Assembly: GCF_003334385.1 (NCBI RefSeq)
Contig: NZ_QOWN01000066.1
From: Escherichia coli
Lineage (GTDB): Bacteria; Pseudomonadota; Gammaproteobacteria; Enterobacterales; Enterobacteriaceae
Direction: 5' to 3' (one strand)
Length of the DNA stretch: 14,062 bases
A program made the position numbers and the translations under genes. This document shows, in pieces, positions 181-750 of this stretch (positions are counted from its first letter, which is position 1; the number at the start of each line of letters is the position of its first letter). The notes beneath the pieces were generated by a model. It was not told the DNA's origin. It saw only the letters and a list, made by a program, of their open reading frames with translations, and ran no database searches.

Positions 181-750
181 GTGACGGAAGAACAACACGT
201 TCAGGCCGCTGAGGCCCGCCGTAATCTGGCCACAGTACTTAAACGCAACGCAGACCGGGGGATGTTCACCATTAACCTGTCCACTGGTCATGAACGCACG
301 CTGTACGCCTTCCTTGACCCCGCATGCATCAACTGCCGTCTGCTGGAACCCGCGCTTAAGCAACTGGCCCGGGAATTCAGCGTGGTGATTTATCCGGTCT
401 CCGTGATTGGCGGGGAGTCCAGTACAAAGCGGACTGCTCCGCTGCTGTGTGAACCGGACTCACAAAAACGGGCGACCGGATGGCATCAGCTGTATTCCGC
501 TGACAGTGGTATGGCCCCCACCGGCGATGCACCGGCCGCACAGGATGGACAGTGTCTGACCGCCGCACGTGCTGCCATCGATGTCAATAACCAGGCTTTC
601 CGCCAGTTCGGTTTTGGCGGAACCCCCTGGGTGTTATCAGATACCGGCTGGCACCTGCCGTCCGGCATCCTGAAAGACGCCACTTCCGTTCGCCTCTTCC
701 TGAAAGCAACAGATAGCGAGGAGTATCACAATGAGCCAGCACCACGTTAA
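181..750 (+). CDS. trbB: DsbC/DsbG-like thioredoxin-fold thiol:disulfide interchange protein (TrbB-like conjugation protein), 189 aa
   Basis: ORF with GTG start. The segment YAFLDPACINCRLL...VVIYPVSV...APLLCEPD fits the DsbC C-terminal domain pattern (F-x-D-x-x-C-x-x-C, then V-x-Y-x-x-F/P, then a later C-A/E-x-D). Its stop overlaps the start of the next gene by 20 bp. No ATG is available upstream in frame, and no N-terminal signal peptide is visible. Confidence 0.6.
   Translation: MTEEQHVQAAEARRNLATVLKRNADRGMFTINLSTGHERTLYAFLDPACINCRLLEPALKQLAREFSVVIYPVSVIGGESSTKRTAPLLCEPDSQKRATGWHQLYSADSGMAPTGDAPAAQDGQCLTAARAAIDVNNQAFRQFGFGGTPWVLSDTGWHLPSGILKDATSVRLFLKATDSEEYHNEPAPR

What the first reader, a model, noticed from the sequence alone, without database searches (positions are those of the whole stretch)
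181..750. DsbC-like TrbB without a recognisable signal peptide or ATG start
The thioredoxin-fold domain is clear, but the only in-frame start is GTG at 181, upstream frames are closed by stops before base 70, and the N-terminus is hydrophilic. A periplasmic disulfide isomerase would need export. Either the protein is exported another way, acts in the cytoplasm, or the start is misplaced.
Basis: seen in the sequence. Interest (0 to 1): 0.35.

Follow-up and report, generated by a model that had tools for sequence, protein, structure and literature searches.

The report
IS-truncated trbB gene remnant
The "leaderless" TrbB is the back half of an ordinary IncI-plasmid conjugation gene that an insertion sequence cut in two, so its real start and membrane anchor are missing from the window; this is a routine pseudogene.

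Summary
ORF 181-750 starts at a GTG, the frame is closed by TGA at 67-69, and the N-terminus is hydrophilic.

The cause is simple. Window 1-77 is the right end of a 1258-bp IS3-family insertion sequence (about 92% identical to ISEc31), ending in its terminal ...CCACTACA. Window 78-750 is 100% identical (673/673) to the 3' part of IncI trbB, annotated "DsbC family protein" (374 aa). The IS sits at codon 151/152, and GTG 181 is internal Val186.

Intact TrbB and nearly all of about 100 homologues (330-425 aa) share one layout:
- a conserved N-terminal domain of about 95 aa
- one hydrophobic segment (aa 104-126 here)
- a variable linker
- a Dsb-like thioredoxin domain (CxxC 234-237, GTP loop, second Cys pair)

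Export is therefore by an uncleaved signal anchor, which lies in the half that the IS cut off. The remnant has no promoter-like site and no Shine-Dalgarno, so it is most likely not translated.

The same junction starts an independently assembled contig that is 100% identical over 6703 nt. Both window ends are exactly 77 nt of IS, which suggests a draft contig that stops at repeats.

Verdict: an ordinary IS-disrupted gene, of low interest.

The parts
1..77 (+). Right end of a 1258-bp IS3-family insertion sequence related to ISEc31. It holds the last 22 codons of transposase orfB (1-66), its stop TGA (67-69), and a 26-nt right inverted repeat (52-77) ending in the terminal ...CCACTACA. An IS911-type outward -35-like TTGACC lies at 66-71.
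   Evidence: Blastn of 1-90 hits 'IS3 family transposase' ends in more than 500 plasmids. The full copy is L002 1320-2577, with IRL TGTAGTGGCACACTAAATTTGGCCAC matching the reverse complement of the right end at 20/26 positions (read directly). Independent copies L002, L003 and L004 all diverge right after ...CCACTACA and carry 3-bp target duplications CAC, CAC and CTG. OrfB hits NCBIfam NF033516 transpos_IS3 at 268.7 bits, above the 160-bit cut-off. The element is 92% identical over its full length to elements annotated ISEc31, and about 63-65% identical to IS911 and ISEc52.
78..80 (+). CAC, the expected right-hand copy of the 3-bp target-site duplication (trbB nt 453-455).
   Evidence: Inferred. 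This IS makes 3-bp duplications in other copies. The left junction is outside the window and was not found.
78..750 (+). 3' remnant of IncI trbB: last base of codon 151, codons 152-374 and the stop. It encodes the end of the periplasmic linker and the whole Dsb-like thioredoxin domain.
   Evidence: 673/673 identical to L001 3002-3674, which lies in the annotated 1125-nt 'DsbC family protein' CDS between trbA and trbC of plasmid p3521.
181..750 (+). GTG 181 is internal codon Val186 of trbB, in the non-conserved linker just before the folded domain (helix 188-210).
   Evidence: Coordinate mapping, alignment A1 and the AF2 model. There is no Shine-Dalgarno in CTGCCCCCGCCCCGACGGCA upstream and no promoter-like site in 1-900.
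325..336 (+). Active-site CxxC (Cys234-Ile-Asn-Cys237 of full-length TrbB).
   Evidence: C234 and C237 are invariant in 45 homologues and align with the DsbC CxxC in 3gv1.
619..627 (+). Gly332-Thr333-Pro334, the cis-proline loop typical of thioredoxin-fold oxidoreductases.
   Evidence: Invariant in alignment A1. It aligns with 'GTP' of DsbC 3gv1.
731..3034 (+). trbC (767 aa, DotL/IcmO-like coupling protein). It is intact, overlaps the trbB remnant by 20 nt, and has its own Shine-Dalgarno GAGGAG at 718-723.
   Evidence: Homology to DotL and the essential role in transfer are from PMC6112013.
13986..14062 (+). Exactly 77 nt of an IS421 (IS4-family) end at the other edge of the window. This is context showing that the window stops at repeats on both sides.
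   Evidence: The 77 nt occur 100% identical at 8459 places in E. coli genomes under 'IS421 family transposase'. Independent copies share sequence from 13986 onward and differ before it.

Best explanation
ORF 181-750 is not a complete gene. It is the part of the 3' fragment of IncI-type trbB that follows the first chance start-like codon. A 1258-bp IS3-family element related to ISEc31, in the same orientation as trbB, is joined to trbB at codon 151/152. The window begins 77 nt before the right tip of that IS.

Intact TrbB (374 aa) is a single-pass inner-membrane protein. It has a conserved N-terminal domain of about 95 aa, preceded on the N-terminal side of the anchor by a Lys/Arg-rich stretch, so that domain is inferred to be cytoplasmic. 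It has one hydrophobic segment (aa 104-126) acting as an uncleaved signal anchor. A variable, disordered Pro/Ala/Ser/Thr-rich linker follows, then a C-terminal Dsb-like thioredoxin domain inferred to be periplasmic. The IS separates the start codon, N-domain and anchor (aa 1-151) from the linker end and catalytic domain (aa 152-374).

The remnant has no promoter-like site, no ribosome-binding site and no export signal. It is most likely untranslated. If any product were made it would stay in the cytoplasm and could not act on periplasmic transfer proteins.

The expected consequences are inferred, not shown. trbB function is lost, which lowers but does not abolish transfer in R64 and pMS7163B. 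Polarity on the essential trbC downstream is also likely, unless read-through from the IS transposase transcript supplies it.

Shown: the IS end, the junction, identity to trbB, the family architecture and the fold. Inferred: the topology, the lack of expression and the phenotype. Unknown: whether the 5' half of trbB survives upstream of the IS.
For: - Junction: all best IncI plasmid matches start at window 77 or 78, not at 1. Bases 1-77 match IS3-family element ends instead.
- IS boundary: four IS copies with different flanks place the IS tip at window 77, and three complete copies have 3-bp duplications.
- Identity to trbB: window 78-750 is 673/673 identical to trbB nt 453-1125 of p3521, and GTG 181 is Val186. 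In p3521 and pB2C_83 the gene is a 1125-nt CDS between trbA and trbC.
- Hydrophobic segment: it is at aa 104-126 in the full-length protein, and there is none in the remnant.
- Family architecture: of 100 homologues down to about 40% identity, most are 330-425 aa, with the top hydrophobic 19-mer at about aa 86-126 and CxxC at about aa 200-276. Alignment A1 shows a conserved N-domain, a variable linker and a conserved C-domain.
- Structure: the AF2 model has a confident N-domain (residues 1-94) and C-domain (186-365) and a low-confidence linker (113-185). The C-domain matches periplasmic Dsb proteins.
- Expression signals: no promoter-like or terminator-like sites in 1-900 and no Shine-Dalgarno before GTG 181.
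- Independent sighting: Logan contig L019 starts with 30 nt of the same IS end and is 100% identical to window 48-6750, and is reported in 5 samples.
- Literature: IncM TrbB has no signal peptide, 1 TMH and a thioredoxin-like domain, and R64 trbB is needed only for high transfer efficiency (PMC6112013). A trbB::Cm mutant of pMS7163B showed significantly reduced conjugation (PMC10286972).
Against: - The left junction (5' trbB joined to the IS left end) is not in the window. Its predicted product (TrbB 1-151 + TVVAH, two sequence variants) is not on record. A simple insertion therefore cannot be told apart from an IS-associated deletion.
- No complete plasmid or genome in PLSDB, E. coli RefSeq, GTDB representatives or JGI metagenomes carries this junction.
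- The membrane topology of TrbB and the lack of expression of the remnant are inferred, not measured.
- The hydrophobic segment of this particular allele is only moderately hydrophobic (Kyte-Doolittle 1.56, against 2-3 in many homologues).
Confidence: 0.94

Rival explanations
1. A genuine short, leaderless TrbB is translated from GTG 181 (or ATG 262) and acts as a cytoplasmic thioredoxin-like protein, or is exported by a non-classical route.
For: The ORF is open for 189 codons and covers essentially the whole folded domain, with helix 188-210 onward. The IS transposase gene is co-oriented and there is no terminator-like site, so read-through transcripts are possible. Gene callers have called this exact 189-aa product in at least 24 contigs.
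Against: GTG 181 is an internal Val codon in a non-conserved linker of a 374-aa protein. There is no Shine-Dalgarno and no promoter-like site. The other contigs in which this ORF is called are all visibly damaged trbB genes, through IS insertions, frameshifts or a deletion, and not a natural short form. Nearly all homologues carry the N-domain and anchor. The closest folds are all periplasmic Dsb proteins, whose CxxC and structural disulfide need an oxidising compartment.
Confidence: 0.03
2. The IS-trbB junction is an assembly chimera: the contig was wrongly extended into a repeat, and trbB is intact in the real plasmid.
For: Both window ends are exactly 77 nt of multicopy IS. That is the signature of a de Bruijn-graph contig stopping at repeats. 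No finished plasmid shows the junction.
Against: A k-mer overlap of 77 nt at a contig end means reads do connect the IS tip to this trbB position. The break is exactly at the biological IS terminus ...CCACTACA and is followed by CAC, the same 3-bp target seen at two other insertions of this IS. An independent assembly with a different k (30-nt IS overhang) has the same junction and is 100% identical over 6703 nt, in 5 samples.
Confidence: 0.02
3. This is a variant of the main explanation. The IS is not a simple insertion but the edge of an IS-mediated deletion or rearrangement, so the 5' half of trbB, and possibly trbA, is absent from the plasmid.
For: The predicted left-junction product was not found in two sequence variants. 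IS3-family elements can mediate adjacent deletions (general knowledge). The window is flanked by two different IS elements.
Against: Absence from an exact-match index is weak evidence, because one amino-acid difference hides the product. The CAC after the IS tip fits an ordinary 3-bp duplication. There is no positive evidence for a deletion.
Confidence: 0.2

Closest known systems
IncI1/IncI-gamma/K-type TrbB, annotated by RefSeq as 'DsbC family protein' (e.g. WP_000152378.1 of p3521; trbB of R64/ColIb-P9)
   Same: Window 78-750 is 100% identical at the DNA level to codons 152-374 of this gene. The gene order is the same, with trbC overlapping its 3' end by 20 nt.
   Different: The window copy lacks codons 1-151 (start, N-terminal domain, membrane anchor) because an IS is joined at that point. 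It is a gene fragment, not a functional member.
ISEc31, and more distantly IS911 and ISEc52 (IS3 family, IS3 group)
   Same: The element is 1258 bp, with TG...CA termini, imperfect inverted repeats of about 26 bp, 3-bp target duplications and an orfA/orfB arrangement. It is 92% identical in DNA to elements annotated ISEc31 and about 63-65% identical to IS911 and ISEc52. From memory, IS911 has the same TTGACC -35-like hexamer 6 nt from the right tip.
   Different: It is not identical to ISEc31 (about 8% divergence), and RefSeq names it only 'IS3 family transposase'. Its ISfinder name could not be looked up here.
Periplasmic thiol-disulfide oxidoreductases DsbC, DsbG, ScsC, alpha-DsbA2, and DsbP of IncA/C plasmids
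   Same: The C-terminal domain has a thioredoxin fold with a helical insert, CxxC, a cis-Pro loop (GTP) and a second conserved Cys pair (C275/C310). Foldseek E-values are 6e-7 to 1e-4.
   Different: Sequence identity is only 14-22%. Full-length TrbB has no cleavable signal peptide. The region between the anchor and the catalytic domain is predicted disordered, with no DsbC-type dimerisation domain. The protein is tethered by a TM segment and carries an extra N-terminal domain.
TrbB of the IncM plasmid pCTX-M3 (338 aa)
   Same: It has the same architecture: no signal peptide, one predicted TM helix and a thioredoxin-like domain. It is encoded between trbA and trbC, and residues 121-256 are 37% identical to ColIb-P9 TrbB (PMC6112013, Table 1).
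   Different: It is a distant homologue. In pCTX-M3 its deletion abolished conjugation, whereas in R64 trbB is needed only for high efficiency (PMC6112013).

Membership tests
IncI-type TrbB (membrane-anchored thioredoxin-fold conjugation protein) | C-terminal Dsb-like thioredoxin domain with CxxC, a GTP cis-Pro loop and a second Cys pair | tested here: met
   Window 78-750 is 673/673 identical to the reference gene. C234, C237, C275, C310 and G332-T333-P334 are invariant in 45 homologues. The fold matches Dsb proteins.
IncI-type TrbB (membrane-anchored thioredoxin-fold conjugation protein) | Full-length protein of about 330-425 aa with a conserved N-terminal domain and a single hydrophobic anchor at about aa 86-126 | tested here: not met
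   The window copy begins at codon 151/152, with IS sequence upstream. The remnant has no hydrophobic segment (maximum Kyte-Doolittle 1.05). Homologues carry the N-domain and anchor.
IncI-type TrbB (membrane-anchored thioredoxin-fold conjugation protein) | Position between trbA and trbC in an MPF_I transfer region | tested here: inconclusive
   trbC follows directly with the usual 20-nt overlap. The upstream neighbour in the window is the IS, and trbA is not visible.
Classical periplasmic DsbC/DsbG isomerases | Cleavable N-terminal Sec signal peptide | tested here: not met
   It is absent from the remnant, from full-length TrbB and from its homologues. Their N-termini are hydrophilic and conserved (MT..Y.A...), and the only hydrophobic segment is internal. 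PMC6112013 reports no signal peptide for the IncM homologue.
Classical periplasmic DsbC/DsbG isomerases | N-terminal dimerisation domain joined by a linker helix to the catalytic domain | tested here: not met
   In the AF2 model residues 113-185 have pLDDT below 50, with no folded domain between the anchor and the catalytic domain. Foldseek alignments of 134-212 columns cover roughly the catalytic domain.
Classical periplasmic DsbC/DsbG isomerases | Thioredoxin fold with CxxC and a cis-Pro loop | tested here: met
   NCBIfam DsbG (17.1 bits against a cut-off of 124) and Pfam hits are far below or near threshold, so this is a superfamily-level relationship only.
IS3-family insertion sequence | DDE transposase matching the IS3 family model above its curated cut-off | tested here: met
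   NF033516 scores 268.7 bits against a cut-off of 160 for orfB of the full copy L002. The window carries its last 22 codons, identical.
IS3-family insertion sequence | Terminal inverted repeats 5'-TG...CA-3' and short (3-bp) target duplications | tested here: met
   IRL is TGTAGTGG... and IRR ends ...CCACTACA, with 20/26 complementary positions. Duplications of CAC, CAC and CTG flank three complete copies. In the window only the right end can be seen.
IS3-family insertion sequence | Two overlapping ORFs (orfA, orfB) with a programmed -1 frameshift motif | tested here: inconclusive
   In L002, orfA (1356-1703) and orfB (to 2569) are in different frames, with an A-rich TTAAAAAAGG near the end of orfA. 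RefSeq annotates one joined 1214-nt CDS. Frameshifting itself is not testable here, and this region lies outside the window.

The most novel reading that the evidence does not exclude
The most novel reading not excluded is that loss of trbB is not a random accident but recurrent and selected in natural IncI plasmids. In the few contigs examined, the same gene is broken in five independent ways: this ISEc31-like insertion, an IS421 insertion, two different C5-to-C4 homopolymer frameshifts and a 19-nt deletion. The poly-C tracts in the linker could then act as mutational switches that lower transfer efficiency. A still more speculative version is that the catalytic-domain remnant is expressed from IS read-through. 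The transposase stop TGA-C at 67-69 is in frame with it.
Probability: 0.06. Interest if true: 0.35.

Novelty: already known. Interest (0 to 1): 0.07.

Why it matters
There are three modest practical points:
- Annotation: a 189-aa "DsbC family/thioredoxin" ORF next to trbC should be flagged as a pseudogene fragment, not as a leaderless oxidoreductase.
- Biology of the family: IncI/IncM-type TrbB reaches the periplasm through an internal signal anchor, so "no signal peptide" is normal for the family.
- Epidemiology: a plasmid lineage with trbB interrupted upstream of the essential trbC is predicted to transfer poorly. This matters when inferring the mobility of IncI resistance plasmids from sequence.

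Nothing here challenges current knowledge.

Tried and rejected
- Source record: I searched for the IS-trbB junction in PLSDB and in E. coli complete genomes, and as an exact 50-mer in GTDB representative genomes and JGI metagenome contigs. Nothing was found.
- Left junction: I looked up the predicted 156-aa product (TrbB 1-151 + TVVAH) in two allelic variants. It is not on record, so whether this is a simple insertion or a deletion stays open.
- Hybrid promoter: I considered one formed from the IS outward TTGACC (66-71) and a flanking -10. The hexamers 16-18 nt downstream (CCACGC, CACGCC, ACGCCC) do not resemble TATAAT, and the scan found 0 promoter-like sites.
- Sequencing error or frameshift hiding an upstream signal peptide: rejected, because the upstream sequence is a transposase C-terminus and an IS inverted repeat.
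- H107 and H109, whose matches start at window 201-207: I checked whether they were other truncations. They carry intact but N-terminally divergent trbB alleles.
- Furuya & Komano 1996 (PMC177830): not held, so R64 facts are cited second-hand from PMC6112013 and PMC10286972.
- NCBIfam: no family reaches threshold for full-length TrbB. The RefSeq name 'DsbC family protein' could not be reproduced with that library.
- IS911 junction promoter: one paper search failed on syntax and was not repeated. That point rests on memory.

Full report
**1. Observation**

The ORF is exactly as described: 181..750 (+), 189 aa, GTG start. Frame 1 reads ...YHFYCKTVANIT* with TGA at 67-69, and it has no ATG, GTG or TTG between 70 and 180. 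The N-terminus is hydrophilic. The best 19-residue Kyte-Doolittle window in the whole ORF scores 1.05, and it is an internal beta-strand.

**2. What lies upstream**

A megablast of window 1-800 against 72,556 plasmids found 888 records. Every top hit, at 100% identity, starts at window 77 and not at 1. The same holds for 5,426 complete E. coli genomes.

In these IncI1/I-gamma/K/B/O plasmids the matching gene is a 1125-nt CDS (374 aa) annotated 'DsbC family protein'. It lies between trbA and trbC, so it is trbB. The window holds only its last 673 nt. Positions 78-750 are 673/673 identical to nt 453-1125 of the p3521 gene, and GTG 181 is internal codon Val186.

Window 1-90 searched alone hits the ends of 'IS3 family transposase' genes in more than 500 plasmids. 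A complete copy (L002 1320-2577) has these features:
- It is 1258 bp long.
- Its left end is TGTAGTGGCACACTAAATTTGGCCAC, and its right end finishes in GTGGCCAATATTACTTGACCACTACA. The two ends are complementary at 20 of 26 positions.
- It has an orfA/orfB arrangement.
- Its orfB scores 268.7 bits against NCBIfam transpos_IS3, above the cut-off of 160.

Four copies in different contexts share sequence with the window up to ...CCACTACA (window 77) and diverge after it. The three complete copies are flanked by 3-bp duplications: CAC, CAC and CTG. In the window the tip is followed by CAC, which is trbB nt 453-455.

The element is 92% identical over its full length to copies annotated ISEc31. It is about 63-65% identical to IS911 and ISEc52.

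The 'upstream stop before base 70' is therefore the transposase stop codon. trbB is cut at codon 151/152.

**3. How intact TrbB is exported**

The full-length protein has one hydrophobic stretch at aa 104-126 (FWRTLMCGFIAGIALPATVAGYH). A Lys/Arg-rich segment, GKGKHPSRKNGFWR, precedes it.

A search of the 5.8-billion-protein collection returned 100 homologues down to about 40% identity. Most are 330-425 aa long. In nearly all of them the most hydrophobic 19-mer sits at residues about 86-126, and the CxxC sits 100-170 residues further on. The few exceptions are short, evidently truncated or mis-started entries.

An alignment of 45 homologues shows four regions:
- a conserved N-terminal domain (M1 and Y5 invariant; L46, L63, H74 and L80 nearly invariant)
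- the hydrophobic segment
- a highly variable linker rich in Pro, Ala, Ser and Thr
- a strongly conserved C-terminal domain from about R198, with invariant C234, C237, C275, C310 and G332-T333-P334

AlphaFold2 on this alignment gives three regions:
- a confident beta-rich N-domain (residues 1-94, pLDDT about 70-90)
- a low-confidence linker (residues 113-185)
- a confident C-domain (residues 186-365)

Foldseek matches the C-domain to periplasmic Dsb proteins, at E 6e-7 to 1e-4:
- Wolbachia alpha-DsbA2
- Vibrio, Salmonella, E. coli and Haemophilus DsbC
- ScsC
- DsbG
- the IncA/C plasmid DsbP

Sequence-level support is weak but consistent. Pfam Thioredoxin_2 gives E=4.8e-4. DsbC 3gv1 gives E=0.009, with the CxxC, the 'C(E/Q)PD' motif and 'GTP' all aligned.

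The IncM homologue is independently reported to have no signal peptide, one TM helix and a thioredoxin-like domain (PMC6112013, Table 1).

The best reading is a single-pass N-in/C-out protein whose internal segment serves as an uncleaved signal anchor. The topology is inferred from the positive-inside rule and from the periplasmic nature of all fold relatives. It has not been measured. That anchor lies about 25 codons upstream of the IS insertion point, so it is not in the window.

**4. Is the remnant likely to be expressed?**

- No sigma-70-like promoter and no intrinsic terminator is found in 1-900.
- The 20 nt before GTG 181 (CTGCCCCCGCCCCGACGGCA) contain no Shine-Dalgarno.
- The IS right end carries TTGACC 6 nt from its tip, as in IS911 (from memory). 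The hexamers 16-18 nt downstream (CCACGC, CACGCC, ACGCCC) are not -10-like.
- The IS is co-oriented with trbB and trbC, so read-through from the transposase transcript is possible.
- trbC keeps its own Shine-Dalgarno (GAGGAG 718-723, ATG 731).

I infer that the remnant is an untranslated pseudogene fragment. Any product would lack an export signal.

The literature gives a phenotype for loss of trbB:
- R64 needs trbB only for high transfer efficiency (PMC6112013, citing Furuya & Komano 1996).
- A trbB::Cm mutant of pMS7163B conjugates significantly less well (PMC10286972).
- trbB scores as transfer-deficient in the pESBL transposon screen (PMC4288162).

About 650 nt of untranslated RNA now lies upstream of the essential trbC. 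Polarity on trbC is therefore a further plausible consequence, though it is inferred.

**5. Is the junction real?**

Both ends of the window are exactly 77 nt of multicopy IS:
- Positions 1-77 are the ISEc31-like end.
- Positions 13986-14062 are an IS421 end. These 77 nt are found at 8459 places in E. coli genomes, and independent copies share sequence exactly from 13986.

This is the signature of a whole de Bruijn-graph contig (k=77) that stops at repeats. It explains why the rest of the IS and anything beyond it are missing.

The junction itself is supported independently. An exact-product look-up of the 189-aa ORF found Logan contig ERR1948963_357 (9001 bp, reported in 5 samples). That contig begins with 30 nt of the same IS end and is 100% identical to window 48-6750, 6703/6703.

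The junction is absent from PLSDB, E. coli RefSeq, GTDB representatives and JGI metagenomes. The left junction could not be found either. It therefore remains open whether this is a simple insertion or an IS-associated deletion.

**6. Comparison with known systems, and verdict**

The fragment belongs to IncI-type trbB but fails the family's full-length criteria, because the N-domain and anchor are missing. It is a pseudogene remnant and not a variant protein.

It resembles DsbC, DsbG and ScsC only at the level of the catalytic fold. Even intact TrbB lacks their signal peptide and dimerisation domain.

The disrupting element is a standard IS3-family IS.

This is an already-known kind of event, an IS-interrupted gene at the edge of a draft contig.

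The only mildly interesting by-product is that trbB appears broken in several independent ways in other contigs: an IS421 insertion, two C5-to-C4 frameshifts and a 19-nt deletion. This fits its non-essential role and could be surveyed properly.

Noticed in passing
window 1-77 and 13986-14062: Both ends of the window are exactly 77 nt of multicopy IS: an ISEc31-like right end and an IS421 end. The window therefore looks like an entire short-read contig (k=77) that stops at repeats, and features near either edge should be read with that in mind.
   Followed up: yes
L012-L018 (contigs), region equivalent to window -120..180: The same 189-aa ORF is called in at least 24 other contigs because trbB is damaged there in other ways. 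L018 has an IS421 end inserted further upstream (TAGCGCTTATGGG|CAGAGCCCCC). L013 and L014 have C5->C4 in GAGCCCCCTTCC. L016 and L017 have C5->C4 in CTGCCCCCGCCCC, which creates a TGA overlapping the GTG. L012 has a 19-nt deletion. Some of the homopolymer cases may be sequencing errors.
   Followed up: partly
window 67-69: The transposase orfB stop codon TGA, followed by C, is in the same reading frame as the trbB remnant. Stop-codon read-through would fuse the transposase to TrbB 152-374. This is almost certainly a 1-in-3 coincidence.
   Followed up: no
L001 2550-2840 (TrbB residues 1-95; not in the window): Intact TrbB proteins carry a conserved N-terminal domain of six beta-strands plus a helix, confidently modelled (pLDDT about 70-90) and presumed cytoplasmic. 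It has no Pfam or NCBIfam hit, and none of the 50 listed PDB fold hits appears to involve it. Its role in an otherwise periplasmic oxidoreductase is unexplained.
   Followed up: partly
window 8912-9261 and 11800-12128 (core 9013-9125 / 11883-11995): A direct repeat of about 330-350 bp (about 86% identical, with a 113-nt core at 94%) lies in the region downstream of nikA/oriT, in the plasmid leading region. It may be repeated single-strand initiation or promoter-type elements. It was not examined.
   Followed up: no
window 12301-13592: This stretch of about 1.3 kb is not collinear with the closest complete plasmid pB2C_83, which matches 77-12300 at 98.5% and 13593-13945 at 98.9%. It is a mosaic segment near ardA.
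   Followed up: no
L002 (CP063741.1) 1320-2577: The same 1258-bp IS is widespread. At least 80% of it is present in 1649 of 5426 complete E. coli genomes by megablast (2400 with the more sensitive blastn search). Two of the three complete copies examined, and the window copy, sit next to CAC, which hints at a target preference.
   Followed up: partly
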